64,000 nt of DNA from NCBI GenBank assembly GCA_965204115.1, contig OZ241963.1, forward strand, positions 233,293 through 297,292, written 5' to 3'. The DNA comes from Minisyncoccota bacterium (GTDB lineage: Bacteria; Patescibacteriota; Minisyncoccia; Phycocordibacterales; JABAAK01). A program made the position numbers and the translations under genes. Below, piece after piece: positions 1-64,000 of this stretch; position 1 is the first letter of the stretch, and every line of letters starts with the position of its first letter. The notes under the pieces were generated by a model that saw nothing but the letters and a program-made list of their open reading frames with translations, had not been told where the DNA came from and made no database searches.

Positions 1-45
1 GATACACAGCATATCGGGCATGCTGGTGTTGTAATAAACAGTCAT

Positions 46-387: not shown

Positions 388-444
388 ATAAGGGCAGGGA
401 AGGATAAGATAAGTACTGTTTGAAAGTTTCTGCAGAGTGATACA

Positions 445-1357: not shown

Positions 1358-1524
1358 TGTGCATCGCATGTCTCACAATACTTTTTCAGACCCAACGCAA
1401 TCCTATCAATGGCACCTGAGAGTATAAACTTCTGCAATCTGCCTGTTTTCGCTTACGCAACACTAGTGAAGTTTGCGAAAACGGCGGATTTCCTTATACG
1501 CACGACCCAATATATTTTTATTGT

Positions 1525-3204: not shown

Positions 3205-3206
3205 AA

Positions 3207-3809: not shown

Positions 3810-3836
3810 TCTTGTATTTTACCATCTAACTATACT

Positions 3837-4928: not shown

Positions 4929-4929
4929 A

Positions 4930-5979: not shown

Positions 5980-6175
5980 ACATTAATATGGTACATTGCT
6001 TTTACTTGTTTTTATTATTCCGCATTGAACATATAAAGCAGTAGCGCCCCTTGTGGGGCCTGGTTCGTATTTGGGAGCATGAATTAAAAGGAGACGGCAA
6101 AACCGCCACAAGAAAAATCTAAAAGTTTTTCAAGTATTAGCTGCTTATTCACCCTCACATTATTTGTTCAAGTCT

Positions 6176-6772
6176 TTACCTTTCTGGCGGACGAGGATGC
6201 AAACTACTTACAGGTATGTTTTTTTCTCCCAGTACGACATCCCTTAATCCTATTGCCATTATCACAGCAAATTGCTCAACCTCCCTTCCTTCACTAAACA
6301 GGTATTCTTTTATTTTCTTTAACTCGGGTGAAGCGTCATTTTTACTTTTTAATATTTCTTTCACAATATCTTTTGATTTTTCCTGTATATCAAAAGCACC
6401 GTCAACATTTTTAAACTTTTCTATCAGGATGTCCTTATTTTTTTTAATGTAGTCTTCAGCACCACTGTTACGAAAAGTTTCCTTTCCAACATCAGTGAGG
6501 GACAGAGGGCTTTGGGTTGCAACTTCTTGCCTTCCTTTCATTTGATTTAACTCTTTTGAGTTTTCTTTTACATCATCCTCAAGGGTTTTTATTTTTTTGT
6601 CCGCATTTTCCAAATTTGTCTCAAGTACACTTAATTTTACTTTCATTGTTACTAACGCAACAACAAGTGCTATAGCTGCAGACACTCCGAGGTCAATAAG
6701 CGAAGGCAGAGAGTTGGTATTACTGGCAGCAGATTCAGAGGTAGATTGAGCTATTACTTCAATAGGAATCAT
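6176..6772 (-). CDS. membrane-anchored coiled-coil protein, hypothetical
   Basis: N-terminal TM helix (LGVSAAIALVVALVTM) followed by a K/E-rich heptad-like sequence. Confidence 0.35.
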   Translation of the reverse strand: MIPIEVIAQSTSESAASNTNSLPSLIDLGVSAAIALVVALVTMKVKLSVLETNLENADKKIKTLEDDVKENSKELNQMKGRQEVATQSPLSLTDVGKETFRNSGAEDYIKKNKDILIEKFKNVDGAFDIQEKSKDIVKEILKSKNDASPELKKIKEYLFSEGREVEQFAVIMAIGLRDVVLGEKNIPVSSLHPRPPER

Positions 6773-6983
6773 ATGTTCAGTTTAACATAAACCAATTGAT
6801 TATACAAGAATATGTGGACACTGGTGACATGATTGATATGTTGAGTACATGATGCTGGATAACCTATAAATGGCGGGTTAATTAAAGTCTATATTTCTGC
6901 TACCCTGTTGCACGGAGCGGAGCGGAGATGGTGCAGTGTTTGTGTACACAATCGCTGCACTGTTTTGAATGGGCGAGGAGGGT

Positions 6984-7673
6984 TTATAAAATAGATGTAA
7001 ATAGGTTGTGGTATTTATCAAGATAGTGAGACAATTCTTTTCTCTTGTACTGCATGATGTAGCGTGGGTGTTCTAATGAATGCACCCTGTTGAACCATTT
7101 GTACTCTTCATTCAGTTCGGTAAAAAATTTATAATTTTTTCCGGATCCGAGAATGATGACGGCATCACTTCTGACACCACATTCAAACTGTGCAAGCAGT
7201 GAATTGACAATAAACGGCTTAAGCATTGTCTGCATTTCTATGCTGTCATAGTAATTATAGTTCTTGCCATGCTGTGTGAAGCCAATTGGCGACACTGCGG
7301 TGAGAAAAAAATTGCTGTAAAATGTTTCTGCTCCTCCGAATTTTTCAATAAAGGTGTACAGGAACTTTGATGAGAGTTCACGACGCTCCTTAAATGTGTT
7401 TGGAATATCACAGTGCTCAGAGAGTGCGATTGGATCGGTGAAAGGGATTCCGGTAACACCTGATCCGAATCTCCCCGGGTTAATACCCAGAACAAAAACC
7501 CTTTCATTGGTATCGTAAAAATACTTTTTTAAAAACATCTTTACATACTTAAAAATTTCCCCATCTTTATGCGGCTCTATTGCTTCAACACCACTTATCG
7601 TGATTTCAGGGACACATACATTTTCGAAGAAGTCAATAATTTTGTCATAGAAAGTTTTTTGGCTTGATAACAT
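6984..7673 (-). CDS. uracil-DNA glycosylase superfamily protein, SMUG-like
   Basis: LGINPGRFGSGVTGIPFTDP closely matches the SMUG1 catalytic motif GMNPGPFGMAQTGVPFGE. A second His-containing motif (HPRY) lies near the C-terminus. Confidence 0.55.
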   Translation of the reverse strand: MLSSQKTFYDKIIDFFENVCVPEITISGVEAIEPHKDGEIFKYVKMFLKKYFYDTNERVFVLGINPGRFGSGVTGIPFTDPIALSEHCDIPNTFKERRELSSKFLYTFIEKFGGAETFYSNFFLTAVSPIGFTQHGKNYNYYDSIEMQTMLKPFIVNSLLAQFECGVRSDAVIILGSGKNYKFFTELNEEYKWFNRVHSLEHPRYIMQYKRKELSHYLDKYHNLFTSIL

Positions 7674-7837
7674 GTCATTCCTCCGTGTTCACAATGATCA
7701 AGTGTTTTATAGCAAAAACACTCCACACCTCATTTTATCACACAGATAAATCTTTCAGAGAGACGGTTTGTCCAACTTGTTTACCTATTCCCTAAAACAT
7801 AACAAGGGGCAGCCGATGGCTGCCCCCATAAATTTGT

Positions 7838-8230
7838 TTATGCTTCTACACCTTCATCATCTTCGGACGACTCATCCTGCTCATCATATCCTACTTTCCA
7901 TAGAGAAAATATCCAGGGAAGGAATAAAAATATCATTATTATGTGAATATAGTAGGCACCATACTTACTCATTTCATGAAGGCCTCTCGGATCAAGCGAT
8001 TCGCCAGACATGTCAATGAATATCACAGGAGGTAATCCGAAAACTATAATCACATAATGCAGTGCTAACGGTATCCAAGATATGACAAGGAAATGATTAA
8101 TCAGCCATCCAGCAAAACGACCGAGTTTGGAGGACGGGTATCTTGATGTCGTGATAGCATAGCATGCAACACCGACCGCAAACAAGATGTACAACTCTTG
8201 TGGTGCAAAGTGGTACTTCACACTTTCCAT
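7838..8230 (-). CDS. integral membrane protein, hypothetical (130 aa)
   Basis: Multiple hydrophobic helices with an acidic C-terminal tail. Confidence 0.35.
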   Translation of the reverse strand: MESVKYHFAPQELYILFAVGVACYAITTSRYPSSKLGRFAGWLINHFLVISWIPLALHYVIIVFGLPPVIFIDMSGESLDPRGLHEMSKYGAYYIHIIMIFLFLPWIFSLWKVGYDEQDESSEDDEGVEA

Positions 8231-10645: not shown

Positions 10646-13600
10646 TTATACAATGTCCGCGACAATTTTTGCGGTCAGTTCGTCACTCTCTATGGTAAAT
10701 TCAGTGCCCTCCTCCGGACTTGTCGCAACATAGGCGACGCTGCGTACCCGCACCTCCTGTTTTATTTTCTCTTCGTGTGCCTGTATATGTTTTAACTGCT
10801 CGGTAGGTATGTGTACCGACAGTGTGTCTGCTGTTCGTGTCGGTGAAAACCCTTTTTCTTTTCGTATTTTTTGGATATTGCGAACATACTCGCGTACGAA
10901 TCCTTCGGCGCGCAGTTCGTCTGTCAGCGTGGTGCTGAGCTCAATTGGCTTGGCAGCGGCAGGGTCAACAACCACCTCTTTCACATTCACCTCATCCCGA
11001 ATCAGTGCCTGCTGCTCCTCGTCAACTTCCTGCTGCACGATGACTTTCTGCAATGGCTGCCGCACCTTGATTCCCGCTTCCGCCCGCTGTTCGTGTGCCA
11101 CCGATACAATATCCCGCACCACAGCTGTTTTTTCTATCGCGTCTCTTTGAAACCACATTTTTTGCGGCCACTTTGTGAGGTGGACACTGTCCGGCAAAAA
11201 CATTTTTTGCGGATGGTGCTTTCGCATCTCTGAGAATAGGTGCTCGGCGTAGAATGGCGCGACCGGCGCGAGGCATTTTGCAAACTCGGTCAGGATGAAC
11301 CGCAGGGTCTCCCGCGCTTCCGCACCGTCGTCCGTTCGGTTCTTTATCCTGTCTCGTGAGCGGCGGATGTACCAGGTTGATAAGTCCTCCACAAATGCGC
11401 CGATTGGCGCGACTGCTTCGTCGATGTGGTACGACTCAAGCCCTTTCGTCATTGCATCCCGCATTTCAGCAAATCGGGAGCAGATATACTCGTCCAATAA
11501 GCTTCTGCCGCCCCGCTTGTGTGGTAGGTGCGCGTATATTAAATAGAATTTGAGGCAGTTATGCAGCCGCGCGTACACTTTTTTGTATACCTCATCAACC
11601 TGCTCATCCCGAAAATCAAGATCTTCTCCGCGCACCACCGGCGAGCCGAGGAGGTAGTGTCGCAGTGAATCCGCACCGTATCGATTAATGATCTGCATTG
11701 GGTCGGTGTAGTTTTGCAAACTCTTGCTCATCTTTTTACCGTCCGCGGCGCGAATTAAGCCGGTTACCACCACCTGCCGGTACGGCGACCGATCAAACGC
11801 TCCGACCGCGATCGTCATCAAACTGTAAAACCATCCTCGTGTTTGATCCAGCCCCTCACAGATGAAATCTGCCGGAAATCCGCGGCGCAGCAGCGGGTTA
11901 AAGATTCGCTTGTTCTCAAACGGATAGTGGTGTGATCCGTACGGCATCGCCCCTGATTCAAACCAGCAGTCAAATACCTCTTTTGTGTGGTACGCCGGGT
12001 TGCCGTCTGCGTCATTGAGCACCACCTCATCAATGTACGGTCGGTGCAGGTCAACCTCGCCGTTTTCATCCCGCCTCACATGCACATAGCGAATGGGGCA
12101 CACGCTCGCGTTGGCAAGCGGTTTTAAGATGGTGGTTTTTCTGTAGTTTTTTTGAAACTGTGCTTTGGTCGGCGCGATGGAGCGTGCCGTGTTGACAACC
12201 GCCCGATGGGTAACCACCACGATGTTCGCATCCTGATACTCTCTGTCCACTTTTTCAAAAAATCGCAGGATTCGTCCGTAGATGTCTAAAAATGATTCAC
12301 CGCCATCAATGGACTTGCTCATATCACGAAATGCGCCGACTTCGCGGATTGCCCGCCATAGCTCCTGCACCGGTCGATTATGTAAATTCGGCACCTGTAG
12401 TTCGGTCAACAGCGGCTCTTCAATCATTCTCGCGTCGGTCTCTTTTGCAATGTACTCTGCTGTTTCTTTCGTGCGGGTGAGCGGTGAATGAAAAATGATG
12501 GTCGGTTTCATGGGCTTCAGTTTCTGCGCCGTCTTTGCTGCCTGCTCTCTTCCCTTTTCGGTTAAGCCATCCCCCGGTTCTTTTTGACAGTTCAAAACAT
12601 TTTTTTCATTACTCACCGACTGCCCGTGTCGCACAAAGAAATAGCGGTTTCTCGGACGCATTTTTGCGTACATCTCTTCCAGCGAGCCGACGATGATGTG
12701 CTCTCCTGTCTTCTCCACCTTCCACGCCGGTATCGGCGCGCCCCAGAAGCGGTTTCGCGATACCGCCCACTCCCGCGCTCCGGCAAGCCAATTGCCGAAC
12801 CGTCCGTCCCGAATATGCCCCGGTACCCACTTGACCTTTTTGTTCTCGGCAACCATGCGATCTTTGATTTGTTCCGAATGCACAAACCACGAATCGGTGG
12901 CATAGTTCAGCAGCGGTGTTGTGCATCGCCAGCACACCGGGTAGGCGTGCTCTATCGGCTCGCTGTGCAGTAGCAGACCTTTGTTCTGTAAATCTTGGAG
13001 TATTTTTTCGTCCACTGTTTTTGTGTTGCCCGCTTCTTTCGGACGCAAGCCGGCATACTCTTCCAGCTGCGGCACAAACACGCCGTCTTTCGTCACATGG
13101 TGTCGAATCGGCAGTCCCTCCTTCTCCGCGGTTTCCATGTCGTCGGCTCCGTATGCCGGTGCGAGGTGTACAATGCCGGTGCCGACCCCCTGCTCAATAT
13201 ATGGCACCCGCTGCACGCGCCATAGTTTCTTTTTTACCTGCGCATCGTCTTTGGCGTAGAGGTGGTCGAAGGGTGGTGTGTACTCTTTTCCGACCAGTTC
13301 GGAACCCTTTTTTGTCCCTGTGGCTGTGCCGCCGTCCACGATGTGTGCTGCGTCCTGATGCAGGATATATTTCTTTCCTTCCCGCTCGACGACCGCATAC
13401 TCCATACTCTCGTCCACACCGAGTGCGACATTGCCGAACAGTGTCCATGGCGTTGTTGTCCACGCAACGAGACAGGTGTTCGGATCATCTTTCAGCGGAA
13501 ATAGCACATACACTGCCGTGTCGGTCAGCGGCTCATAGCTATCCGCGACCTCTGCGTTGGAGATGACCGTCGAGCAGCGCGGACACAGGTGTAGTGACTT

Positions 13601-14167
13601 GAAGCCATTGCTCACCAAGCCCCGCCGGTGCAGCCGATGAAAGACTGACCACACCGATTCCATATATGGTGTGTTGAGCGTGCGATAGTCGTTCTCCATG
13701 TCCACCCACCGACCGATCCGCGGAATAATCTGTTTCCACTCGTCCACATAGGTAAAGATGGTGTCGCGAATACCGCGGTTAAATTTTTCTATGCCGTATT
13801 CTTCAATGTCCCGCTTTGTCTTTGTCCCGATTTTTTTCTCCATTTCCACCTCAGGCGGCAGTCCGTGGCAATCCCATCCCCACCGACGCAGCACCTGATA
13901 CCCCCGCATCGTCTTATACCGCGGCACCACATCTTTCACGATGCTCGCCAAAATGTTGCCGAAATGCGGCAGTCCCGTCGCGAATGGCGGGCCGTCGTAC
14001 ATAATAAATTGTCTTTTCGGGATGAGTTTTTGTGTTATTCGCTGCAAAAAGCTTTTTTTCTCCCGCCCCTCACTCTTTTCAAAAATGCTGTTTTCCCGCC
14101 AAAACCGTAGCACCCGTTCCTCCCGACCGGCAACCGTTTCCCGTTTTTCGCCTCCCTTTTCAGCCAT
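10646..14167 (-). CDS. ileS: isoleucyl-tRNA synthetase, type 2, carrying an inserted histidine-phosphatase-like domain
   Basis: PPFATGLPHFGNIL (HIGH region), WAVSRNRFWGAPIP, DLHRPYIDE and KMSKS are present. 1173 aa is ~130-150 aa longer than typical type-2 IleRS, due to the RHGQ...VVVTHRAVV block between the PIPAW and DLHRPYID segments. Confidence 0.9.
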   Translation of the reverse strand: MAEKGGEKRETVAGREERVLRFWRENSIFEKSEGREKKSFLQRITQKLIPKRQFIMYDGPPFATGLPHFGNILASIVKDVVPRYKTMRGYQVLRRWGWDCHGLPPEVEMEKKIGTKTKRDIEEYGIEKFNRGIRDTIFTYVDEWKQIIPRIGRWVDMENDYRTLNTPYMESVWSVFHRLHRRGLVSNGFKSLHLCPRCSTVISNAEVADSYEPLTDTAVYVLFPLKDDPNTCLVAWTTTPWTLFGNVALGVDESMEYAVVEREGKKYILHQDAAHIVDGGTATGTKKGSELVGKEYTPPFDHLYAKDDAQVKKKLWRVQRVPYIEQGVGTGIVHLAPAYGADDMETAEKEGLPIRHHVTKDGVFVPQLEEYAGLRPKEAGNTKTVDEKILQDLQNKGLLLHSEPIEHAYPVCWRCTTPLLNYATDSWFVHSEQIKDRMVAENKKVKWVPGHIRDGRFGNWLAGAREWAVSRNRFWGAPIPAWKVEKTGEHIIVGSLEEMYAKMRPRNRYFFVRHGQSVSNEKNVLNCQKEPGDGLTEKGREQAAKTAQKLKPMKPTIIFHSPLTRTKETAEYIAKETDARMIEEPLLTELQVPNLHNRPVQELWRAIREVGAFRDMSKSIDGGESFLDIYGRILRFFEKVDREYQDANIVVVTHRAVVNTARSIAPTKAQFQKNYRKTTILKPLANASVCPIRYVHVRRDENGEVDLHRPYIDEVVLNDADGNPAYHTKEVFDCWFESGAMPYGSHHYPFENKRIFNPLLRRGFPADFICEGLDQTRGWFYSLMTIAVGAFDRSPYRQVVVTGLIRAADGKKMSKSLQNYTDPMQIINRYGADSLRHYLLGSPVVRGEDLDFRDEQVDEVYKKVYARLHNCLKFYLIYAHLPHKRGGRSLLDEYICSRFAEMRDAMTKGLESYHIDEAVAPIGAFVEDLSTWYIRRSRDRIKNRTDDGAEARETLRFILTEFAKCLAPVAPFYAEHLFSEMRKHHPQKMFLPDSVHLTKWPQKMWFQRDAIEKTAVVRDIVSVAHEQRAEAGIKVRQPLQKVIVQQEVDEEQQALIRDEVNVKEVVVDPAAAKPIELSTTLTDELRAEGFVREYVRNIQKIRKEKGFSPTRTADTLSVHIPTEQLKHIQAHEEKIKQEVRVRSVAYVATSPEEGTEFTIESDELTAKIVADIV

Positions 14168-14240: not shown

Positions 14241-16808
14241 TTATTGAGAGGTTTTACTGAGGTCTCCGATGGCGACCCAGCCCTCTTCGTAGCTTACGGG
14301 TGGTGCCTGTTTTTCTCTCTTTGGTGCGACTTTGAGATCTTTTTGTAGGCCGGTTGATTTTGTTGATTTTACTAAATCACCCAATCCGCCGCTGATGTTT
14401 GGGCGTGGTTGCGGTTGCTGTTTTTTTGGTGCTTCCTGCTGTTTGTTTTCTGTATCCGGCTTTGTGACCGACTGCTCGGTCGGTGGTGGCGCTGCCATAC
14501 TGCGTGCAATGGTTCCGGTGATCACGCCGTTTGGTCGGCGGACGGTGTCGGGTTCCTGCTGCTGCCTTTCCTGCCTTCTTCGCTGAGTCAATCTTTCATT
14601 TTTTGCTAATCTGTTTCTCTCTTGCTTTGTTTGTGCGATTGGCTTGTGCGAAGGTGTCTGCCTTTGTGTGTTCTGCCGGGGGTGTTGTGGCCTTTCCGAC
14701 TGCTGGCGCCTGTCCAGTGCAGGAGTTCTACCTCTCTGCCTTTCAGTGTTTCTGTGCTGCTGCGGTTTGCGTTGCTCGGGTCGCTCAGGTCGCTGTCTAC
14801 TGTTGTTGTGGCGTGTGTCATTTCTTTCTCTTTGGGAGGGGCGCTTGTTTCTTAGTTCGCGCGGCCTTTCAGGAGCGGCATCTCGTGTGCGCTGTGGCGC
14901 AGTGTTTCTTGGTTCACGCTCCTGCCGTCTTTCGTTTCTTTTGCGGTCGGTGCGCTGTGGTTTCTGTATGTCCGCTTTGCGAGTATCTCTTTGTATATTC
15001 ATACCATCGTCTTTCTTTTCGGACACAGCAGGCGTGATGGGGTACTCTTTTTTCTCTTTTGGTTCGTGTGCTGTCTTCTGTGCCGGTGTTGGGGTTGGCG
15101 CTGCTTCAGTACTTTCTGTATCTGACACCGGCTCCGGCTCCGGTTGATTTCGTTTGAAAATTCCTTTGAGTAGCGGCGCGCGCTTTTTTTCAGTGCTTGC
15201 TGCATCTGCTCTCTCATCTCTGCTGTCTGCTTTGCTGTCTGTCTTAACGATAGGGACCGACTTGGCATCTTGTTTTTCTGCCTTGGCTTTGCTGTCGTCT
15301 TGTGCGGTTTGTTTTTTCGGCTTTTCTGTTTTTTGTTTTTCGGTATTCGTCTGTCCGCTGCCGTGTTGCTGTATCTGTTGCACTAATCCTTTCAGCGGGG
15401 TGTGCGTCTCGTTTCCTTTTTGGCCGCCCTGTTTCTTTCTATCAGAGCCCTGCTGTTTGCCGCCTTTCCCTGTTTTTTCTTTTGCCTTTTCATCCTCCGC
15501 CAAGTTATCCGCGACTATTTTTTCTATCACATCCCGGTCAACGCCGTAGGTGTCCATTGTCCGCTGCACCACCTCTTCTTCCATTGAATCTTCAGTCGGC
15601 GGCGGCTCAAAGAAAGTTCGCGCAGAAAACGGCACAGACCCCGCGCCGTCAATGTTCAAGGTGAGGTAGATGTGGTATCGTGGCAGCGCGACTAAGTCCT
15701 CCTCCGCGATGTCCGGCGCGAATTGCTTTGAGATAATTTCCGCGTCAACCGGACCAACCCGAAACGATACAAAGGTGCCGACATTGCCGAACACTGCATC
15801 CCGAATCGCGTCTCCTCCGCCGGTGTCATCGGTATACAGCTGCCCTAAATACTGGTGCGCCATCACCAAATTCAGCTTGTACTTCCGCGCCTCGGATAGG
15901 ATGTCGGAAAAAGAGGAGTTTGCGAATGATTGGAACTCGTCAACGAAAAAGTTGCACGGGTTTGCTGCTTCCAGATGGGCGCGATCCAGATCGCTCCGTG
16001 ATAGTGCGGCGAGGTAGATTTTGGTCGTGAACAACACGCCGAGCATGCGCGCGTTGTTCTCGCCGACCTGCCCTTTTGAAAGGTTTACCAGCAGTATCTT
16101 CCCTTCATCCATAATCTCCCGAAAATTAAACGCTGACTTTTCCTGCCCGATGATGTTTCGCATCAGCGGGTTGGAGGTGAACTGTCCGAGCTTGTTTTGG
16201 ATGGATGGTGTCGCCTCCTGTGCGTACCGCTCGGTATAGTTTGCGTATTCCTCAACCCAGTATTTCCGCACCTGCGGGTCTTTCAGGTTGGCAACCACCT
16301 TTTCACGAAAATCTTTGCTGGAATACATCCGCCCCACATCAAGCAGCGTTGTTCCCGGATACTCAATCAACGCCAACAGTGTGTTCTGTAAAATGTACGC
16401 CATTCGATCCGACCAAGTTCCCGCTCCCCAAATCTTTTCAAATGAGGCCATTAAGCTGCTTACCACCAAATGCCGTTTATCGTATCCGATGTCCTCCATA
16501 ATGTTCAGCCCAATCGGTTTTTCCTGGTAGTGCGGTGCGAAGTAGATGATCTTGTCCAGATGCTCCGGTGTCACATACTTCAGCAGTGCCTCAACGGATT
16601 GACCGTGCGGATCCATAAATATCAGCCCGGTGCCGTTGCGAATGTCCTGCATCGCCAGCATTTCTAACAGCGTTGACTTTCCGGTTCCTGTCTGCCCGAT
16701 GACATAGATATGCCGTGACCGATCCTTTTCCTTAATGCCGAAGCGCACGGTATTCCCCCGCTTTTCTAATTCTCCCACTTGTACTATTCTTTCAGGATCG
16801 TATGCCAT
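14241..16808 (-). CDS. TraD/TraG/VirD4-family type IV coupling-protein-like ATPase (cytoplasmic, no N-terminal TM) with a long charged low-complexity C-terminal tail
   Basis: Walker A YVIGQTGTGKST and Walker B NFFVDEFQSF. The AAA-like fold resembles T4SS DNA-transfer ATPases. Residues ~438-830 are K/E/R/Q/P-rich and disordered. Confidence 0.5.
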   Translation of the reverse strand: MAYDPERIVQVGELEKRGNTVRFGIKEKDRSRHIYVIGQTGTGKSTLLEMLAMQDIRNGTGLIFMDPHGQSVEALLKYVTPEHLDKIIYFAPHYQEKPIGLNIMEDIGYDKRHLVVSSLMASFEKIWGAGTWSDRMAYILQNTLLALIEYPGTTLLDVGRMYSSKDFREKVVANLKDPQVRKYWVEEYANYTERYAQEATPSIQNKLGQFTSNPLMRNIIGQEKSAFNFREIMDEGKILLVNLSKGQVGENNARMLGVLFTTKIYLAALSRSDLDRAHLEAANPCNFFVDEFQSFANSSFSDILSEARKYKLNLVMAHQYLGQLYTDDTGGGDAIRDAVFGNVGTFVSFRVGPVDAEIISKQFAPDIAEEDLVALPRYHIYLTLNIDGAGSVPFSARTFFEPPPTEDSMEEEVVQRTMDTYGVDRDVIEKIVADNLAEDEKAKEKTGKGGKQQGSDRKKQGGQKGNETHTPLKGLVQQIQQHGSGQTNTEKQKTEKPKKQTAQDDSKAKAEKQDAKSVPIVKTDSKADSRDERADAASTEKKRAPLLKGIFKRNQPEPEPVSDTESTEAAPTPTPAQKTAHEPKEKKEYPITPAVSEKKDDGMNIQRDTRKADIQKPQRTDRKRNERRQEREPRNTAPQRTRDAAPERPRELRNKRPSQRERNDTRHNNSRQRPERPEQRKPQQHRNTERQRGRTPALDRRQQSERPQHPRQNTQRQTPSHKPIAQTKQERNRLAKNERLTQRRRQERQQQEPDTVRRPNGVITGTIARSMAAPPPTEQSVTKPDTENKQQEAPKKQQPQPRPNISGGLGDLVKSTKSTGLQKDLKVAPKREKQAPPVSYEEGWVAIGDLSKTSQ

Positions 16809-57098: not shown

Positions 57099-57171
57099 GC
57101 CATCTTAGCTCAGTCGGTAGAGCACTCCCATGGTAAGGGAGAGGTCGCCGGTTCAAATCCGGCAGATGGCT
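57099..57171 (+). tRNA. tRNA-Thr (anticodon GGT)
   Basis: Acceptor GCCATCT/AGATGGC, D-arm GCTC-AGTCGGTA-GAGC, anticodon stem CTCCC/GGGAG with loop ATGGTAA, T-arm GCCGG-TTCAAAT-CCGGC. Confidence 0.8.
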
Positions 57172-57455: not shown

Positions 57456-57546
57456 CTGACGATGCATCATAATCCGTTTGTAGGTGCGGTATACTGCAAG
57501 AGCAGATGGATTTATTGACCCCTTATTGTTAATGCGCATTAGCACA

Positions 57547-59304
57547 ATGAAAAAGTCATTCATAGCATTTCGCCCATACCCGGGCATGTACAAAAAAGTA
57601 CCGCCGTCAGACGCCTGCCTGTTGCTCATTTTAATGAGCGTTCTTTTTGTGCAGATTGTGTTTCTTCTCACCGCTCTTAACAAAACTTTTTTGCATGAGT
57701 CAACAGTGCGTCGCGGAGAAATTAATGAGGGCGTTGTCGGTGTGCCGGTATACAAAAATCCTCTCTATGCGGATAACGCCGCTGAAAAAGATATCGCGGC
57801 ATTGATGCACGCCGGATTACTGAAGCGCACTATCGCCGGCGACTTCATGCCGCACCTTGCAAAAACATGGAAGCAGGCAAGCCCGACTAAGTACACATTT
57901 ACCCTGAGAGAAAATATTTCGTTTCACGACGGTTCCCTTATCACGACAGCGGATGTTCTGTACACCATTGATATGATTCAGCGAGAACAAAAATACAAAA
58001 ACTATTATCACGAAGCATGGGAAGGGGTGACTGTGGAAGCTGTGGATGATATCACCCTTTCGGTCACCATTCCGGAGGACAACCTCCACTTCCCCGAACA
58101 GTTCACTGCCCCAATTCTTCCTGAACATATTTGGAAAAAAATACCGACCGACAAGCAGCGCAACTATAACGGCTCAGGTGTGCACATCGGCGCGGGGCCG
58201 TATAAGTATAGCCGGGAGACGATAACGCTGGATGAGCGTCCGACAAATATAACTCTTGAAGAATTTTCCGGTTATGTCCTCGGCAGGCCATTTATCAAAA
58301 AAATCACCCTTCATTTTTTTGTTGATGTTGTCAACCTCTTGCAGGCGTATCAGGTCGGTATTATTGACAGTGTCTACGGCATTGCCGGCGGCGAGGCGGC
58401 GACCCTGCTGAAGCAGAAGAGAGAAGAGCGAATTAAGCTGCACACCATTAACACCAACCGTGTCTTTGGTGTATTTTTCAATGCTGAAGACGGTCGTATC
58501 CTGCAGGACTCTTTTCTTCGCAGTATTCTTTCTCACCTGGTTAAGCGTGAATATATTACCACGCAGATATTTAATGCTCACGCCACGCCAATACAGCACC
58601 CACTCCCGGCTGATACTGACATAAAAGAGCAGGACATAACGCCGGAAGTCATTAACCAGACACTGGATGACATTGGTTGGGATTTTGAATCCGCCGCCGG
58701 TCGCCGTGAGCAGGATGGTGTTCCGCTCAAAATTTTATTTGTCATTCCGGATATCAAAGAGGCGCGGGACATAGCAGACACCCTCAGCAAAGGGTGGCAG
58801 CGGCTTGGTATTGCAGTCACTATACAAGCTGTTCCGGAAGAAGACATCCCTGAAACTATTCAAGCGAAGAAGTTTGATGCGATACTCTATGGCTATGAAG
58901 CGAATACTGCGAAAGATTTGGTTGCACTGTGGAAATCCGGCGATCGCGAAAACCTCGCGTCAATCACCAGTTTCGGCAGCCCGACTCTTAATAACCTCCT
59001 TACTGATTTAGAGCAAATAGTCCCGCCAGACCGCCTTATTGAGCAGTTATCCCAGCCCTCTGATGACATTTGGCAAAATATAGTGTATGATGCTATTAAG
59101 GTAGAGATGATGAAAAATGTTCCGGCAATTTTCCTTTATTCGCCTCACTTTCTCTATATACTGCCCGAGAGTGTCAGTGGAGTAGGGCTGCAAAAAGAAC
59201 AGCAACCTCTCGGTAGAATAACAGACCCGAGTGACAGATTTATAAATGTGCATAAATGGCATATGCAGCAGGAGAAGGTTTGGAGACCCTTCATTGAGAA
59301 TTAA
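57547..59304 (+). CDS. ABC-transporter substrate-binding protein, family 5 (Opp/Dpp-like), membrane-anchored
   Basis: N-terminal TM anchor, then AKTWKQASPTKYTFTLRENISFHDGSLITTADVLYTI typical of SBP_bac_5. Start taken at MKKSFIAF (57547). Confidence 0.55.
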   Translation: MKKSFIAFRPYPGMYKKVPPSDACLLLILMSVLFVQIVFLLTALNKTFLHESTVRRGEINEGVVGVPVYKNPLYADNAAEKDIAALMHAGLLKRTIAGDFMPHLAKTWKQASPTKYTFTLRENISFHDGSLITTADVLYTIDMIQREQKYKNYYHEAWEGVTVEAVDDITLSVTIPEDNLHFPEQFTAPILPEHIWKKIPTDKQRNYNGSGVHIGAGPYKYSRETITLDERPTNITLEEFSGYVLGRPFIKKITLHFFVDVVNLLQAYQVGIIDSVYGIAGGEAATLLKQKREERIKLHTINTNRVFGVFFNAEDGRILQDSFLRSILSHLVKREYITTQIFNAHATPIQHPLPADTDIKEQDITPEVINQTLDDIGWDFESAAGRREQDGVPLKILFVIPDIKEARDIADTLSKGWQRLGIAVTIQAVPEEDIPETIQAKKFDAILYGYEANTAKDLVALWKSGDRENLASITSFGSPTLNNLLTDLEQIVPPDRLIEQLSQPSDDIWQNIVYDAIKVEMMKNVPAIFLYSPHFLYILPESVSGVGLQKEQQPLGRITDPSDRFINVHKWHMQQEKVWRPFIEN

Positions 59305-59313
59305 TGAACGAGT

Positions 59314-61095
59314 ATGGCAATACAAAAAAGAAACTATAAACGATCACAGCAAACACGATCAAGAGGCAAAACAGCTTCTGTAAAAAAACCAAAAAAAGTA
59401 TTTATTCCGAAACCGAGCAGAGGTGAGATTCGCACGCTTATATTCGGCGGCATATCAGAAATCGGTAAAAATATGTACGCTATTGAGTACAACAACAATA
59501 TCATTATATTGGAGTGCGGCACCATGTTCGGCGAGCGCAGTACCCCGGGTATTAGTGCGATTATGCCGAATATCCAATACCTCAAAAACAGAAAGCAGGA
59601 TGTTAAGGCGCTCATTGTCACCGACGCTTCAATGAAGCACATCGGTGCTATTCCTTATGCTATTCAGGATGTGGGCAGTCCGACTATATATACCAGAAAG
59701 CTCACTAAGGCGATTATAGAGAACCACCAAAAAACTCTCCGCAAAAAGCCGACTACAACATTCCATGAAGTTGAGGAAGCGGAGTCAGTTACTATCAACG
59801 ATGAAATCACGCTTCACTTCTTTGGTGTCACCAATGATGCGCCGAGTACTCTCGGTGTTCTTATAGAGACCCCTGTTGGCTGCATCGCCTACACCGGCAA
59901 CCTGAAGGTGAGCCACAATAAAGAGGTCATTCGCGCTGAAGAGGAGAAAGTGTTCAAAGCGGCGAAAGAGAAGGAGGTTGTTCTCTCTCTTGCTGACTCC
60001 GTCGGCTCAGAGCGCCCCGGCTTTGCTATCACTGACCAGGAGATCGCTGAAGAAATTGAACAGATGATACAAGAGGCGCCGTACCGCGTTATGACCTCTC
60101 TCTTCCCTTCCCAGATAAAAAGGAACGCGATGATACTGGAAAAAGCTCTCAAAGCCGGCAAGAAGACCTATATAGAAGGCGCACTTCTGTTGGAAAACCT
60201 CCAGACCGCCTGTGACCTCGGGATCGTGCAAGTGCCGAGAGAAGTGCTCATTCCCATACAGGAGATGAAAAAGGAGGAGGATGACGCTGAAAAAGTATTC
60301 ATCGCTTTTACCGCTGAAGAGAATGAAATCTGTGAAGCATTAGAGAGCATCTCTCGGGAAAGTTATCGATATACCTCCGTCATCACGAAAGATACTGTCA
60401 TATTTCCCTCACCGATGATTCCCGCGAATGCGCAGGCAATACAAAATCTCAAAGACCGTCTCTCTCGCCTCGGTGCGATAACCCGCTCGTATGACACAAG
60501 CGATGTCAGGGGCAGCGGACATGCTAACAAGAGCGAGCTCCGCTGGATGCACCAGCTCCTTGACGCGACATTCTTCATTCCTTTGCAGGGCTATCACTAT
60601 ATGCTTAATGCGCACACGCACATCCTTCGTGAACTTGGTATGGCACAGGACTCATTCGTTATACCTGAAAATGGTGTCATAATAGATATTAGCCCTGACG
60701 GTAAGGTCATCAAAAAACAAAAACAGCGGATGGAGACAACTGCAGTATCTGTTGACGGGCACACCCTCGCCCCGATACAGGAGGTTGTGGTGCAGGATCG
60801 TAATACACTTTCACAGGAAGGTATATTTATCATCATTGTCTTTGTTGACCGTAAAACACTTGAAGTTAAAAAATCCCCTGATATTATCTCTCGCGGTTTT
60901 ATATACTTGCGGGAATCACAGGACCTCATCGCGCGTGTCCGCATTGTCATTAAAAAAGCCGCTGAAAAAGAAATGAAAGAGACCGGTAAAATAGAAATTG
61001 ATAAAATGAAGAAAGCAATACAGAAAGAAGTGCAGACCTTTTTGGTGAATGAGACCAACAAACGACCGATTATTGTTCCGGTTATATTCACCTAA
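59314..61095 (+). CDS. RNase J paralog with a degenerate metallo-beta-lactamase active site (HxHxDH replaced by TDASMKH)
   Basis: Full RNase J architecture (MBL, beta-CASP with SGHAN, C-terminal domain). Aligned against the downstream copy, SHAHLDHIGG becomes TDASMKHIGA. Confidence 0.7.
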   Translation: MAIQKRNYKRSQQTRSRGKTASVKKPKKVFIPKPSRGEIRTLIFGGISEIGKNMYAIEYNNNIIILECGTMFGERSTPGISAIMPNIQYLKNRKQDVKALIVTDASMKHIGAIPYAIQDVGSPTIYTRKLTKAIIENHQKTLRKKPTTTFHEVEEAESVTINDEITLHFFGVTNDAPSTLGVLIETPVGCIAYTGNLKVSHNKEVIRAEEEKVFKAAKEKEVVLSLADSVGSERPGFAITDQEIAEEIEQMIQEAPYRVMTSLFPSQIKRNAMILEKALKAGKKTYIEGALLLENLQTACDLGIVQVPREVLIPIQEMKKEEDDAEKVFIAFTAEENEICEALESISRESYRYTSVITKDTVIFPSPMIPANAQAIQNLKDRLSRLGAITRSYDTSDVRGSGHANKSELRWMHQLLDATFFIPLQGYHYMLNAHTHILRELGMAQDSFVIPENGVIIDISPDGKVIKKQKQRMETTAVSVDGHTLAPIQEVVVQDRNTLSQEGIFIIIVFVDRKTLEVKKSPDIISRGFIYLRESQDLIARVRIVIKKAAEKEMKETGKIEIDKMKKAIQKEVQTFLVNETNKRPIIVPVIFT

Positions 61096-61112
61096 ATACA
61101 TTTACACTGCTT

Positions 61113-63044
61113 ATGCCAGAAAAAAGAAAAGTTACAACAAAAAAAACAATAGAGCGTACCGATAAGGATGCGGTCAATAAGAGTAAAAGTGCTCCTGCAA
61201 AAAAGAGTGCGTCAAAAAAAGCGACGAAGAAGCGACCGGATGCGCCGAAGAAAAAGGTGCCGTCAGGGCTCTATCAAAAACCCCTTCGCCGTCAGGGCGG
61301 ACTCATCGGCTCTCGAGAACTCACCGGCGGATTTGATGCTGAATCAACCTTGAATATACCACGACAAGAAAAAGGAGCCATCCGTGTTCTCTTCTTTGGC
61401 GGTGTCGGAGAAATCGGTAAAAATATGTACGGGATTGAGTATGAGGATGAGATCGTGCTCCTGGACTGTGGCATGAAATTTGCCCAGAACGACACTCCCG
61501 GCATTGACTTTATTGTTCCGAATATTCAATACCTTGAAGAACGGAAAGAGAAAATAAAAGGGCTTGTTATCTCTCACGCCCACCTTGATCACATCGGCGG
61601 TATTTCAGTTGTTATGAACAGGATCGGCAACCCGCCGATTTTCTCCCGCAAACTCAGCATAGAACTTATCAGGAATAGGCAGGGCGAATTTGAAAACAAA
61701 GAGGCGATTAAGTACCATGAGGTGGAGAAGAGTACTGTACTGAAGCTTAGCGATAATCTCACCCTCACCTTTTTCTCTGTTACGCACACCATCCCCGACT
61801 CAATGGGTATTGTTATAGACACCCCTGTCGGCGCGATTATCTTTACCGGTGATCTCAAGCTTACTCACGAAGATGGTGTTGTCGGCCCTGAAGAGGTTAA
61901 AGAATTTGCCGCGATTAAAAAGAAAAATGTTCTCTTAACGATGGCAGATTCAACCAATGCGGAACGCCCCGGCTTTTCCCTTCCGGAAAAGCGTGTGGTG
62001 GAAACCATCGGTAAAATAATTAAAGAAACCAAAGGCAGGGTTATCCTTTCCGCGTTTTCAACGCAGATAGAGCGCACCATCAGAGTTATTGAGCATGCCA
62101 TTGAAAATGGCAGAAAGGTAATTGTGCAGGGCAGGTCAATGATTACTAATCTTACCATCGCCTCGGAGTTGGGGCTTCTTAAAATACCACTCACTGCGAT
62201 TATCCCGGCTGAAAAAATGGGAGATTACCCGAAGGAGAAACTTCTCGTCCTTGCAACCGGCGCTCAGGGAGATAATTTTACCGCGATGGACAGGATGTCT
62301 CGCGGCACCCACCGGCATATTAAACTGGACAGTAAAGATACCGTTGTCTTTTCCTCCTCGATTATTCCCGGCAATGAAGAGCCCGTACAAAACCTCAAAG
62401 ACCGCCTTTCCAAACTCGGCGTGGATCTTATCACCTACCAAACAAGTGATGTCCATTCCAGCGGACATGCTAACCGTGATGAGCTTAAATGGATTCACGA
62501 AAACATCGGCGCAAAATTTTTCACCCCTATCCATGGTTACCACTTTATGCTCTCTGCGCATGCCCAAATTCTTCGCGATATCGGTATGCCTGAAGAAAAT
62601 ATCATTATTCCCAACAATGGCTCCATTGTGGATATTAATCCTGATGGGTCAGCAATTACTATGCAGGAGTACACCATGCCCACAGAGGTTATTGTTGTGG
62701 ATGGTAACGCCGTCGGAACTGCGCAAGCCGTTGTTCTTAACGATCGCATAACCCTTAAAGAAGAAGGTATTTTCGTTGTTATTGTTCTTATCAACAAGCG
62801 GCTTAAAAAAGTTAAAAAATCTCCCGATATTATATCCCGTGGCTTTGTCTATCTTAAAGAATCTCAACAGCTTATTAATCGTTCCCGTATGATTGCTCGT
62901 CGCTCTGTAGATCAATCTCTTCGTCGTGGCAGAATGATAAACCTTGACGCAATAAAACGAAACCTCATTCGCGAAACCCAAAATTATCTCTATAACGAAA
63001 CGAAAAAACGCCCGATCATCGTCCCTGTCCTCTTTGTTTCTTAG
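61113..63044 (+). CDS. rnj: ribonuclease J with a Lys-rich N-terminal extension
   Basis: VLFFGGVGEIGKNMY, intact ISHAHLDHIGG motif II, SGHAN beta-CASP motif. The first ~70 residues are K/A-rich. Confidence 0.8.
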   Translation: MPEKRKVTTKKTIERTDKDAVNKSKSAPAKKSASKKATKKRPDAPKKKVPSGLYQKPLRRQGGLIGSRELTGGFDAESTLNIPRQEKGAIRVLFFGGVGEIGKNMYGIEYEDEIVLLDCGMKFAQNDTPGIDFIVPNIQYLEERKEKIKGLVISHAHLDHIGGISVVMNRIGNPPIFSRKLSIELIRNRQGEFENKEAIKYHEVEKSTVLKLSDNLTLTFFSVTHTIPDSMGIVIDTPVGAIIFTGDLKLTHEDGVVGPEEVKEFAAIKKKNVLLTMADSTNAERPGFSLPEKRVVETIGKIIKETKGRVILSAFSTQIERTIRVIEHAIENGRKVIVQGRSMITNLTIASELGLLKIPLTAIIPAEKMGDYPKEKLLVLATGAQGDNFTAMDRMSRGTHRHIKLDSKDTVVFSSSIIPGNEEPVQNLKDRLSKLGVDLITYQTSDVHSSGHANRDELKWIHENIGAKFFTPIHGYHFMLSAHAQILRDIGMPEENIIIPNNGSIVDINPDGSAITMQEYTMPTEVIVVDGNAVGTAQAVVLNDRITLKEEGIFVVIVLINKRLKKVKKSPDIISRGFVYLKESQQLINRSRMIARRSVDQSLRRGRMINLDAIKRNLIRETQNYLYNETKKRPIIVPVLFVS

Positions 63045-63074: not shown

Positions 63075-63902
63075 CTATGAGCAGCCATTTCCGGAATCTT
63101 TCGCCCGAAATCCGATCAGTCCGGTTCGAAATACATCAATGCTCCGTAAATGCCCTTTTTCTGTAATGAACACTATCCGCACTCCTTCGTATACGCTTGA
63201 CATCCGCGCTGATGCCCCATTCGGCTCTGTGTTTTTGTATTGAGAGGTCTCCTTGTTCCCCGAAATGGTGACTGGCACGACATTTGCGTGCACCTCTCGG
63301 GACGGCTGTTCAATAGAAAGATGAATATCAAAATTATTCTGCGCTGTTTGTGCTGCGTTATACCCTGCTGCCGTCGGGTTTGGCACACTACAGAGCATGG
63401 AGTCAGCCGTACACGCTGTATCATTGTTTACCGTCAGTTGCTTTCGTGTATATCGCGACGCGCCCTCTTCATCAATGAAGCATACATCAACATAGTATTG
63501 CTCAGATGACCCCAGTCGCACTTGTCGTGAGTCCGGCACGACAGAATCACGCCCAAGCGCAAAAACTTCCCCTTCCGCAAAACTCGTGAATACTCCCGGC
63601 GCCTTCTCCAGCCGAAAAAGATCTACCACCCCATTACGCACTTTTAGTCGTACCACCTGAAATCCCCCCGCTGATACTATTGCGCTTCTTGAAAGATTTT
63701 CTGCTGCTCCCGATGATTCCTGCGCAAACCGAATATACTCTCCTACTTCTGCTATCCGCACTCGCAGTAACGACCGACTGGTGAAAGTTCCGTAATTAAT
63801 AAACACCGTCCCGATAATAATCCCCATAATAGCAATAGAAACTACCACTTCCATGAGCGTAAATCCGCTATGATTAAAAGGGGAAAGGTGCGCAGTTCGC
63901 AT
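63075..63902 (-). CDS. type IV pilin / pseudopilin-like protein (prepilin N-terminal cleavage/methylation motif)
   Basis: HSG|FTLMEVVVSIAIMGIIIG is the class III signal-peptide consensus (G|FTLxE plus a hydrophobic helix). Start taken at MRTAHL (63902) rather than 63938. Confidence 0.6.
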   Translation of the reverse strand: MRTAHLSPFNHSGFTLMEVVVSIAIMGIIIGTVFINYGTFTSRSLLRVRIAEVGEYIRFAQESSGAAENLSRSAIVSAGGFQVVRLKVRNGVVDLFRLEKAPGVFTSFAEGEVFALGRDSVVPDSRQVRLGSSEQYYVDVCFIDEEGASRYTRKQLTVNNDTACTADSMLCSVPNPTAAGYNAAQTAQNNFDIHLSIEQPSREVHANVVPVTISGNKETSQYKNTEPNGASARMSSVYEGVRIVFITEKGHLRSIDVFRTGLIGFRAKDSGNGCS

Positions 63903-64000
63903 ATATTCTTTATTATACGCTACCCTTGTTTCACCCAAGCGTCATGCATGCCACTTGTACTACGATGTTCGCAGGAAGGAGTGCTCGGCGATTATGCCGA

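What the first reader, a model, noticed from the sequence alone, without database searches (positions are those of the whole stretch)
59314..63044. Tandem RNase J paralogs, the upstream copy lacking the HxHxDH zinc-binding motif
Two adjacent, same-strand genes have full RNase J architecture. The downstream copy has the canonical ISHAHLDHIGG. At the aligned position the upstream copy reads VTDASMKHIGA (nt ~59620-59640), having lost three of the four metal ligands of motif II while keeping the beta-CASP SGHAN motif. This suggests a catalytically impaired pseudo-RNase J subunit partnered with an active one, an extreme version of the RNase J1/J2 arrangement.
Basis: partly seen in the sequence, partly recalled or inferred. 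Interest (0 to 1): 0.5.

Follow-up and report, generated by a model that had tools for sequence, protein, structure and literature searches.

The report
Dead RNase J partner beside live one
A tiny-genome (CPR/Kaiserbacteria-like) bacterium encodes, just upstream of its normal RNA-degrading enzyme RNase J, a conserved full-length copy that has lost almost every catalytic metal-binding residue but kept its dimerisation domain, so it most likely works as a non-catalytic partner subunit rather than as a nuclease.

Summary
ORF A (59314-61095, 593 aa) and ORF B (61113-63044, 643 aa) are full-length RNase J paralogs, 43% identical and 17 nt apart. B has every canonical motif. A reads DASMKH at motif II and has also lost the motif III His, the motif IV Asp and the motif C His, so 6 of 7 metal ligands are gone. 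It has further lost RNA-clamping residues (Sco R267, Q311, the 5'-sensing loop).

A is not a pseudogene or an assembly error. About 32 protein clusters (42-96% identical to A) share the same substitution pattern. In all four relatives' contigs I inspected, the A-type gene sits between an SBP_bac_5 gene and a canonical rnj. dN/dS is about 0.04. A's catalytic domains evolve about twice as fast as B's, but its linker and C-terminal oligomerisation domain do not. A and B co-diverge (r = 0.94).

A arose by duplication of the B lineage and is not an ortholog of Firmicutes J2. Other Patescibacteria lineages carry similarly arranged degenerate/canonical pairs, probably of independent origin.

Best reading: A is a non-catalytic RNase J subunit that hetero-oligomerises with B, like Firmicutes J2 or eukaryotic CPSF100/INTS9. 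The physical partnership is inferred, not shown. I rate it a new variant of a known kind, of moderate interest.

The parts
57484..59304 (+). SBP_bac_5-family gene with a predicted N-terminal membrane anchor. It is the conserved upstream neighbour and probably the first gene of the same operon (9-nt gap to A).
   Evidence: Pfam SBP_bac_5, E = 5e-41. A homolog lies upstream on the same strand in 82 of 85 Patescibacteria rnj loci. No convincing terminator before A.
59314..61095 (+). Gene A: degenerate (pseudo-enzyme) RNase J paralog, 593 aa.
   Evidence: TIGR00649 score is 349.5, below the 400 cutoff. There is no Lactamase_B Pfam hit. The AF2 model has the RNase J fold.
59314..59421 (+). A N-terminal Lys/Arg-rich tail (aa 1-36; 36% K+R, no D/E), predicted disordered.
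   Evidence: pLDDT below 50 for residues 1-27.
59512..59514 (+). A motif I position: Glu67 in place of the canonical Asp.
59617..59649 (+). A degenerate motif II, VTDASMKHIGA (D104, S106, K108, H109 in place of H, H, D, H).
59833..59835 (+). A motif III position: Asn174 in place of the His ligand. This position varies across the clade (D/E/N/K/S/G/A).
59899..59901 (+). A motif IV position: Asn196 in place of the bridging Asp ligand.
60085..60459 (+). A beta-CASP domain (aa 258-382). It has lost the RNA 'sandwich' Arg (A290 = Sco R267), has Q->E at E336 (= Sco Q311), and has a remodelled 5'-sensing loop, PSPMIPAN (aa 365-372).
   Evidence: Pfam PF22505, E = 1.1e-19. Residue mapping. Residue roles from PMC4652760.
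60511..60528 (+). A motif B, GSGHAN. His403 is invariant in the clade.
60586..60588 (+). A motif C position: Gln425 in place of the His ligand.
60787..61089 (+). A RNase J C-terminal (oligomerisation) domain. It is the best-conserved part of A, including KKSPDIISRGFIYLRES and the invariant K583 (= Bsu R544).
   Evidence: Pfam PF17770, E = 7e-24. Per-domain divergence ratio 0.91 against B..
61096..61112 (.). 17-nt A-B intergenic spacer with no terminator. Relatives have spacers of 1-11 nt, or the called genes overlap.
61113..63044 (+). Gene B: canonical RNase J, 643 aa, with all motifs intact (D118; H155/H157/D159/H160; H225; D247; D279; H452; H474) and an 88-aa Lys-rich N-terminal tail.
   Evidence: (TIGR00649 465 bits, above the 400 cutoff).

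Best explanation
Gene A encodes a non-catalytic RNase J paralog (a pseudo-nuclease). It arose by tandem duplication of the lineage's own rnj gene. It then lost the di-zinc site and several substrate-clamping residues, but kept the RNase J fold, part of the base-binding pocket, the motif B His, and above all the linker and C-terminal oligomerisation module.

A is co-transcribed with the canonical enzyme B. It most likely assembles with B into hetero-dimers or hetero-tetramers that have one live and one dead active site. In that complex it would act as a scaffold, stabiliser or specificity subunit for B, in the way proposed for Firmicutes RNase J2 with J1 and established for CPSF100/CPSF73 and INTS9/INTS11.

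Shown here: the degeneration, its conservation, purifying selection, conserved synteny, co-divergence and domain-specific constraint. Inferred: co-transcription, physical heteromerisation and the regulatory role.
For: (1) In A, 6 of 7 metal ligands are replaced and motif I Asp is Glu. B is fully canonical.
(2) The pattern D-x-S-x-[KTQS]-H, motif IV N/S and motif C Q is conserved in about 32 clusters that are 42-96% identical to A.
(3) Selection is purifying: dN/dS is 0.043 for A and 0.029 for B (window vs L085; dS near saturation), all ORFs are intact, and the clade alignment has 75 invariant columns.
(4) The order SecG / SBP_bac_5 / A / B is conserved in L001, L002, L003 and L085, with gaps of 1-17 nt or overlapping gene calls and no terminator.
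(5) Constraint is domain-specific. Relative to B, A's MBL and beta-CASP domains diverge 1.85-2.06 times faster, but its linker (1.09x) and C-terminal domain (0.91x) do not. No type-II divergence site falls in the C-terminal domain. The independently derived U-type pairs repeat the pattern.
(6) Pairwise divergences of A and of B correlate at r = 0.94 across 16 genomes.
(7) A keeps 66 of 107 canonical-invariant columns. These include the C-terminal block and K583, the equivalent of B. subtilis J2 R544, whose contact with J1 is required for J2 function.
(8) Precedent: a B. subtilis J2 catalytic-site mutant has no effect on tested targets, whereas deleting J2 or mutating its interface residue does (bioRxiv 10.64898/2026.05.27.728192). 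INTS9 is a beta-CASP pseudoenzyme that has lost 3 of 4 motif II ligands (PMC7980224).
(9) The gene is retained on a contig of about 0.66 Mb, which I infer to be most or all of a streamlined genome.
Against: No direct evidence of an A-B interaction exists, and the heterodimer could not be modelled. B shows few derived changes that would indicate co-adaptation to A (13 sites, none clearly at an interface). The B. subtilis D449 salt-bridge partner is not conserved in either A or B. The replacement residues D104, H109, N196 and Q425 are polar and fairly well conserved, so a residual or altered metal site cannot be formally excluded. The AF2 model of A is only of moderate confidence (pLDDT 76). The tree is neighbour-joining only, and support for A+B as sisters is 64-86%.
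Confidence: 0.65

Rival explanations
1. A is a stand-alone, non-catalytic RNA-binding protein, for example a 5'-end or single-strand binder that protects or sequesters transcripts from B. It would work as an A-A homodimer and not as a subunit of B.
For: A keeps the hydrophobic base-pocket residues (F72, F264, I369 = Sco F52, F241, I343), the invariant motif B His403 and a strongly basic N-terminal tail. A conserved C-terminal domain would serve homodimerisation equally well.
Against: A has lost the Arg that clamps the stacked bases (Sco R267). It has Q311->E, which puts an acidic residue at a position that lines the base-2 pocket in S. coelicolor RNase J. It also has two prolines in the 5'-sensing loop. 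All of this argues against canonical RNA engagement. The tight, invariant tandem linkage with B and the co-divergence at r = 0.94 are easier to explain by stoichiometric co-assembly.
Confidence: 0.17
2. A is still an enzyme. Its remodelled pocket (D104, H109, D/E/N174, N196, Q425) would bind a different metal (Mg/Mn/Ca, mononuclear) or use different chemistry, giving a neo-functionalised nuclease or hydrolase.
For: The substituted residues are mostly polar, potentially metal-ligating, and moderately conserved: D104 in 19 of 21 sequences, H109 in 19 of 21, Q425 in 19 of 21. dN/dS is low.
Against: Two of the positions vary freely across the clade: 108 is K/T/Q/S and 174 is D/E/N/K/S/G/A. That does not fit a conserved catalytic centre. 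The MBL and beta-CASP domains evolve about twice as fast as in B. No Lactamase_B profile match remains. The independent U-type copies degenerate to quite different residues (N/S, S/N, E, N/Y), so no common alternative active site emerges.
Confidence: 0.08
3. A is a decaying pseudogene, or an assembly or sequencing artefact of a duplicated rnj.
For: The loss of many catalytic residues looks superficially like decay.
Against: The 593-codon ORF is intact. The substitution pattern is the same in about 32 clusters from independent assemblies. dN/dS is 0.043. The clade alignment has 75 invariant columns. Position and orientation are conserved in relatives only 42-54% identical to A.
Confidence: 0.01

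Closest known systems
Firmicutes RNase J1/J2 (rnjA/rnjB) heteromer, e.g. B. subtilis, S. aureus, S. epidermidis
   Same: Both are a pair of full-length RNase J paralogs in one organism, one fully active and one impaired. A 2026 preprint proposes that B. subtilis J2 acts as a non-catalytic specificity cofactor through a C-terminal contact (R544) with J1. A keeps the equivalent basic residue (K583, invariant) and the C-terminal domain. The top Foldseek hit for the A model is the RNJ2-RNJ1 integrative model 9a5v.
   Different: A is not orthologous to J2. It is sister to its own partner clade inside Patescibacteria and shares 15 of 47 B-specific derived states. It scores no closer to J2 than to J1. 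The degeneration goes much further: B. subtilis J2 is HGHDEN, and the names of the S. epidermidis J2 mutant entries imply H76/H78/H80/H144/E166, whereas A retains only one of seven ligands and has also lost RNA-contact residues. The genes here are adjacent and probably co-transcribed; from my own knowledge, rnjA and rnjB are unlinked in B. subtilis.
CPSF73/CPSF100 and INTS11/INTS9 (eukaryotic beta-CASP enzyme/pseudoenzyme heterodimers)
   Same: An active MBL/beta-CASP nuclease is paired with a paralog whose motif II and other ligands are mutated. INTS9 motif II loses 3 of 4 ligands (PMC7980224). Dimerisation is through C-terminal domains (my own knowledge). The preprint draws the same analogy for J2.
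   Different: These are a different beta-CASP subfamily, related only at superfamily level (Foldseek E about 1e-17, 12-15% identity). They are eukaryotic, act in 3'-end processing rather than 5'-3' decay, and sit within large multi-subunit complexes.
Other degenerate RNase J paralogs in Patescibacteria (U-type: L026, L041, L086/P0132, L087/P0126, P0127, P0134; third group: L088/P0162, P0188)
   Same: The degenerate copy lies immediately upstream of a canonical rnj on the same strand. In the U-type loci whose upstream flank is present (L026, L041, L086) it also follows SBP_bac_5. These copies show loss of metal ligands, of R257 and of the S330/S332 loop, with the same relaxation of the catalytic core and preservation of the C-terminal domain.
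   Different: The substitution patterns differ, and in the U-type the motif B His is lost as well. The clades are separate: A+U form a single clade in only 13-24% of bootstraps, and U shares only 2 of 47 B-derived states. They are therefore probably independent duplications. None appears to be described in the searchable literature.

Membership tests
[quoted passage not shown] | Full-length architecture: MBL domain with an inserted beta-CASP domain, a linker and the RNase J C-terminal domain | tested here: met
   A aligns end to end with 3zq4 (aa 41-592, E = 1e-80). Pfam PF22505 and PF17770 are above their gathering scores. The AF2 model matches RNase J structures.
[quoted passage not shown] | Curated family score threshold (NCBIfam TIGR00649 cutoff of 400 bits) | tested here: not met
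   A scores 349.5 bits, below the cutoff. B scores 465.2 bits, above it.
[quoted passage not shown] | MBL motifs I-IV plus beta-CASP motif C, which supply the seven di-zinc ligands (Bsu H74, H76, D78, H79, H142, D164, H390) | tested here: not met
   A has D, S, K, H, N, N, Q at these positions, so only H109 is kept. B has all seven.
[quoted passage not shown] | 5'-3' exo- and endoribonuclease activity | not testable with these tools
   This needs a biochemical assay. The sequence predicts loss of activity in A and retention in B.
Firmicutes RNase J2 (rnjB) orthologs | Orthology with rnjB: closer to J2 than to J1 or other RNase J, and branching with the Firmicutes J2 clade | tested here: not met
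   A scores 274.9 and 270.3 bits against J1 (3zq4, 6k6s) and 252-253 bits against S. epidermidis J2. A is sister to its own Patescibacteria partner clade.
Firmicutes RNase J2 (rnjB) orthologs | Partly degenerate motif II (B. subtilis HGHDEN) that keeps the first two His | tested here: not met
   A reads DASMKH, against J2 HGHDEN.
Enzyme/pseudoenzyme beta-CASP heteromer (functional class: J1/J2, CPSF73/CPSF100, INTS11/INTS9) | One paralog has an intact active site and the other lacks its metal ligands | tested here: met
Enzyme/pseudoenzyme beta-CASP heteromer (functional class: J1/J2, CPSF73/CPSF100, INTS11/INTS9) | The two paralogs are co-inherited and co-expressed | tested here: met
   Tandem, same-strand pairs with 1-17 nt gaps or overlapping gene calls in every A-type locus inspected (window, L001, L002, L003, L085). 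Co-divergence r = 0.94. Co-transcription is inferred only, from the absence of a terminator.
Enzyme/pseudoenzyme beta-CASP heteromer (functional class: J1/J2, CPSF73/CPSF100, INTS11/INTS9) | Physical heterodimerisation through the C-terminal domains | not testable with these tools
The only support is indirect: the C-terminal domain and linker of A evolve as slowly as those of B.

The most novel reading that the evidence does not exclude
Catalytically dead RNase J subunits have arisen independently at least two or three times in ultra-small Patescibacteria genomes. Each time this happened by tandem duplication of rnj, each time the upstream copy died, and each time the C-terminal oligomerisation module was kept while the metal site, the RNA-clamping Arg and the 5'-sensing loop were lost. 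This would mean that an asymmetric RNase J assembly, with one live and one dead site, is repeatedly selected. It would be a bacterial counterpart of CPSF73/CPSF100, and natural genetic evidence that the J2-type partner works non-catalytically.
Probability: 0.45. Interest if true: 0.7.

Novelty: new variant of a known kind. Interest (0 to 1): 0.55.

Why it matters
RNase J is one of the few ribonucleases retained across CPR/Patescibacteria (PMC12641178), and it is central to RNA decay in many bacteria. Whether the second RNase J paralog of Firmicutes (J2) acts catalytically or as a cofactor is an active question, and a 2026 preprint argues for the cofactor role.

This locus amounts to a natural experiment. 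The partner has lost essentially all catalytic residues, yet it is kept under strong purifying selection in what appears to be a genome of about 0.66 Mb, always fused into an operon with the live enzyme, and similar pairs seem to have evolved more than once. That supports a non-catalytic, structural or specificity role for RNase J partner subunits. It also extends the enzyme/pseudoenzyme beta-CASP pairing known from eukaryotic 3'-end processing to bacteria.

There is a practical point for annotation as well. NCBI currently names these proteins plain 'ribonuclease J', which overstates the catalytic repertoire.

Tried and rejected
(1) Shifted motif: rejected. The pairwise and HMMER alignments to B, 3zq4 and 5a0t have no gap around motif II.

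(2) Sequencing error or pseudogene: rejected on conservation in about 32 clusters and dN/dS of about 0.04.

(3) A as an ortholog of Firmicutes J2: rejected.

It therefore gave no taxonomic census of the A clade. I reused those loci as a control set, in which 78 of 80 have a single rnj.

(6) Search for B-side co-adaptation: only 13 B-derived sites, none clearly at an interface, so inconclusive.

(7) The B. subtilis D449-R544 salt bridge: D449 is not conserved in A or B, and only the basic 544 position is. The specific J1/J2 contact cannot simply be transferred.

(8) A single ancient origin for all degenerate copies is disfavoured: A+U form a clade in 13-24% of bootstraps, all degenerates together in 1%, and U shares 2 of 47 B-derived states. 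It is not excluded, because only NJ trees were possible and the origin of U relative to its partners is unresolved (U+Ud 40%; Ud-derived states uninformative, 1 of 10).

(9) Promoter and terminator scans gave nothing beyond chance.

(10) Literature searches for RNase J with Patescibacteria, CPR or pseudoenzyme found no prior description.
Full report
**1. Observation**

The window holds two adjacent ORFs on the + strand. A is at 59314..61095 (593 aa) and B is at 61113..63044 (643 aa), with a 17-nt spacer between them. An SBP_bac_5-family gene ends 9 nt before A, and the next gene after B is convergent.

BLASTP of A against B gives 43% identity over 577 residues with only two gaps, none near motif II. 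Both proteins exceed the Pfam gathering scores for RNase_J_b_CASP and RNase_J_C, but only B matches Lactamase_B. Against NCBIfam TIGR00649 (RNase J family, cutoff 400 bits), B scores 465 and A scores 349.5. A aligns end to end with solved RNase J structures (3zq4, E = 1e-80). An AlphaFold2 model built on a 26-sequence clade alignment (pLDDT 76) finds RNase J structures as its top Foldseek hits, led by the RNJ2-RNJ1 integrative model 9a5v.

The reported motif is present as described. A reads VTDASMKHIGA at nt 59617-59649, and B reads ISHAHLDHIGG at nt 61569-61601.

**2. The degeneration goes beyond motif II**

I mapped the seven di-metal ligands using B. subtilis J1 numbering: H74, H76, D78, H79, H142, D164 and H390. 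The identity of these ligands is from my own knowledge of RNase J structures; the mapping was checked through the HMMER alignment to 3zq4. At these positions A has D104, S106, K108, H109, N174, N196 and Q425, so only one ligand survives. Motif I Asp is Glu67. B has every ligand.

A retains the motif A Asp (D228) and the motif B His (H403, within GSGHAN).

I then used the S. coelicolor RNase J alignment (5a0t) together with the residue roles described in PMC4652760:
- A keeps the hydrophobic base-pocket residues F72, F264 and I369 (Sco F52, F241, I343).
- A has lost the Arg that sandwiches the stacked bases (Sco R267, now A290, variable in the clade).
- A has replaced Sco Q311 with an invariant Glu (E336).
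- A has remodelled the 5'-sensing loop from ASSLIPGN to PSPMIPAN, with two clade-invariant prolines.

Overall there are 107 alignment columns that are at least 95% invariant in 41 canonical enzymes. The A clade keeps 66 of them, loses 23, and is intermediate at 18.

**3. A is a conserved lineage, not an accident**

A word-indexed search of 5.8 billion proteins returned about 32 clusters at 90% identity (P0001-P0031 and P0054). They are 42-96% identical to A and lack an MBL Pfam hit. All other listed hits are canonical.

The substitution pattern is shared across the clade: [DEN]-x-[SA]-x-[KTQS]-[HY] at motif II, N/S at motif IV, and Q at motif C. The one source-named member is annotated 'ribonuclease J [Candidatus Kaiserbacteria bacterium]'. 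The window's own A and B are exact matches to proteins on a 661,662-bp NCBI/ENA contig.

In an exhaustive HMM search of 1.84 billion representatives clustered at 50% identity, the A clade collapses to two representatives (916 and 865 bits). The next hit, at 566 bits, is canonical at all metal-ligand positions (motif A Asp is Glu). The clade is therefore narrow.

Selection on A is strong. Comparing the window with L085 (88% amino-acid identity), dN/dS is 0.043 for A and 0.029 for B, with dS near saturation. The clade alignment has 75 invariant columns.

**4. Conserved pairing**

In the four relatives' contigs I inspected (A-type proteins 43-88% identical to A), the order is SecG, SBP_bac_5, degenerate copy, canonical copy, all on one strand. 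Gaps are 1-9 nt or the called genes overlap. Matching contig lengths link A-type and B-type proteins in at least 17 assemblies.

A sister lineage (P0032, 512-kb contig) has the same neighbourhood but only a single canonical rnj directly after SBP_bac_5. Of 80 other Patescibacteria species-representative loci, 78 have a single rnj.

Across 16 matched genomes, A-A and B-B pairwise divergences correlate at r = 0.94. No terminator-like site separates SBP_bac_5, A and B. Co-transcription is inferred from this, not shown.

**5. Where constraint remains**

Divergence within the A clade relative to the B clade differs by domain:

| Domain | A/B divergence ratio |
|---|---|
| N-terminal MBL | 1.88 |
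| beta-CASP | 2.06 |
| C-terminal MBL segment | 1.85 |
| Linker | 1.09 |
| C-terminal domain | 0.91 |

The C-terminal domain is also the most similar region between A and its partner, at 51% identity. None of the 17 type-II sites (A and B each at least 90% conserved, but different from each other) lies in the C-terminal domain; 14 lie in the N-terminal MBL and beta-CASP domains.

The C-terminal domain mediates RNase J dimerisation (established knowledge). In B. subtilis, the J2 C-terminal residue R544 is required for J2 to stimulate J1. The equivalent position is an invariant Lys (K583) in A. The D449 partner of that salt bridge is not conserved in either A or B.

**6. Origin**

Neighbour-joining trees on 583-587 columns with 100-200 bootstraps give these supports:
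- A monophyletic: 98-100%
- B monophyletic: 99-100%
- A and B as sisters: 64-86%

A shares 15 of 47 B-clade-specific derived states. Examples are Ala at Bsu75 and Asp at Bsu423. A is therefore a lineage-specific duplicate of B and not an ortholog of Firmicutes J2. It also scores slightly better against J1 than against J2 structures.

**7. A recurrent theme**

Two of the control loci (L026, L041) and several representatives (P0132 in L086, P0126 in L087, P0127, P0134) form a second degenerate clade, which I call U (bootstrap 100). These genes also lie immediately upstream of a canonical rnj, and in L026, L041 and L086 they follow SBP_bac_5. Their substitutions differ from A's, and the motif B and motif C His are both lost.

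A third group (P0162 in L088, and P0188) sits in a different context, with rpsP upstream.

A and U group together in only 13-24% of bootstraps, even though long-branch attraction would favour that grouping. U shares only 2 of 47 B-derived states. Only two states (Y193, E336) are shared by A and U yet absent from canonical enzymes. Independent origins are therefore favoured but not proven.

The U pairs repeat the domain pattern: divergence ratios of 2.7, 2.0 and 1.5 in the catalytic parts against 0.8 and 1.0 in the linker and C-terminal domain.

**8. Interpretation**

The best-supported mechanism is that A is a non-catalytic RNase J subunit that hetero-oligomerises with B through the preserved linker and C-terminal module, and that it modulates B's stability, specificity or mode of action (confidence about 0.65).

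It works like Firmicutes J2 as recently re-interpreted. In that work the J2 H76A mutant has no effect on tested targets, whereas deleting rnjB or mutating R544 does. It also resembles CPSF100 and INTS9. It differs from J2 in being an independent and far more degenerate invention, and in being encoded in tandem with its partner.

The rivals are:
- A stand-alone RNA-binding protein (about 0.17).
- A neo-functionalised enzyme with a remodelled metal site (about 0.08). The variability of positions 108 and 174, and the relaxed catalytic domains, count against this.
- A pseudogene or artefact (about 0.01), which the data refute.

**9. Limits**

- No interaction, activity or expression data exist, and the heterodimer could not be modelled.
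- The trees are distance-based.
- Literature searches of the held library found no prior description of fully degenerate RNase J paralogs in CPR. Subscription-only literature was not covered.

**10. Verdict**

It is a new variant of a known kind (an enzyme/pseudoenzyme beta-CASP pair of the RNase J1/J2 type). Interest is moderate, and is raised by the apparent recurrence and by its bearing on the current J2-as-cofactor debate.

Noticed in passing
window 57484-59304 (+), and loci L001-L088: A membrane-anchored SBP_bac_5-family (peptide/nickel-type solute-binding) gene lies immediately upstream of rnj on the same strand in 82 of 85 Patescibacteria loci examined. That makes it a near phylum-wide linkage between an extracytoplasmic binding protein and RNase J, with no obvious functional rationale.
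   Followed up: partly
window 10646-14167 (-): A 1172-aa class I tRNA synthetase (tRNA-synt_1 plus Anticodon_1, IleRS-like) carries a full histidine-phosphatase (His_Phos_1) domain at aa 509-690, inserted between the two halves of the catalytic domain. This is an unusual domain insertion. L088, from another lineage, has stand-alone His_Phos_1 genes near a tRNA synthetase.
   Followed up: no
window 1-8000: This is a low-GC segment (35-39%, against about 50% elsewhere). It encodes an EcoRI-type adenine methyltransferase (4930-5979, -) and a GmrSD_N+HNH nuclease (3837-4928, -), so it is probably a horizontally acquired restriction/defence islet.
   Followed up: no
window 59314-59421 and 61113-61376: Both RNase J copies carry Lys/Arg-rich, probably disordered N-terminal tails: A has 36 aa with 36% K+R and no acidic residues, and B has 88 aa with 28% K+R. 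Many canonical Patescibacteria RNase J proteins are similarly extended, at 600-650 aa against 555 in B. subtilis. These tails may be RNA- or ribosome-binding appendages.
   Followed up: partly
L026 2088-3806, L041 2141-3859, L086 2875-4617, L087 626-2398, L088 4001-5773: Other Patescibacteria lineages carry their own degenerate RNase J copies immediately upstream of a canonical rnj. Their substitution patterns differ from A's. Q301->E and loss of R257 and S330/S332 recur across the groups, which may be convergence.
   Followed up: partly
window 14241-16808 (-): An 855-aa HerA/TrwB/TraG-like ATPase (DUF87, TrwB_AAD_bind, TraG-D_C), i.e. a type IV coupling-protein-like gene. A pilin-like N_methyl gene lies at 63075-63938 (-), convergent with rnj B.
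   Followed up: no
window 57099-57171 (+): A tRNA gene (Rfam, 70 bits) lies just upstream of a short SecG gene that ends at 57455. The SecG / SBP_bac_5 / rnj block is syntenic across the relatives examined.
   Followed up: no
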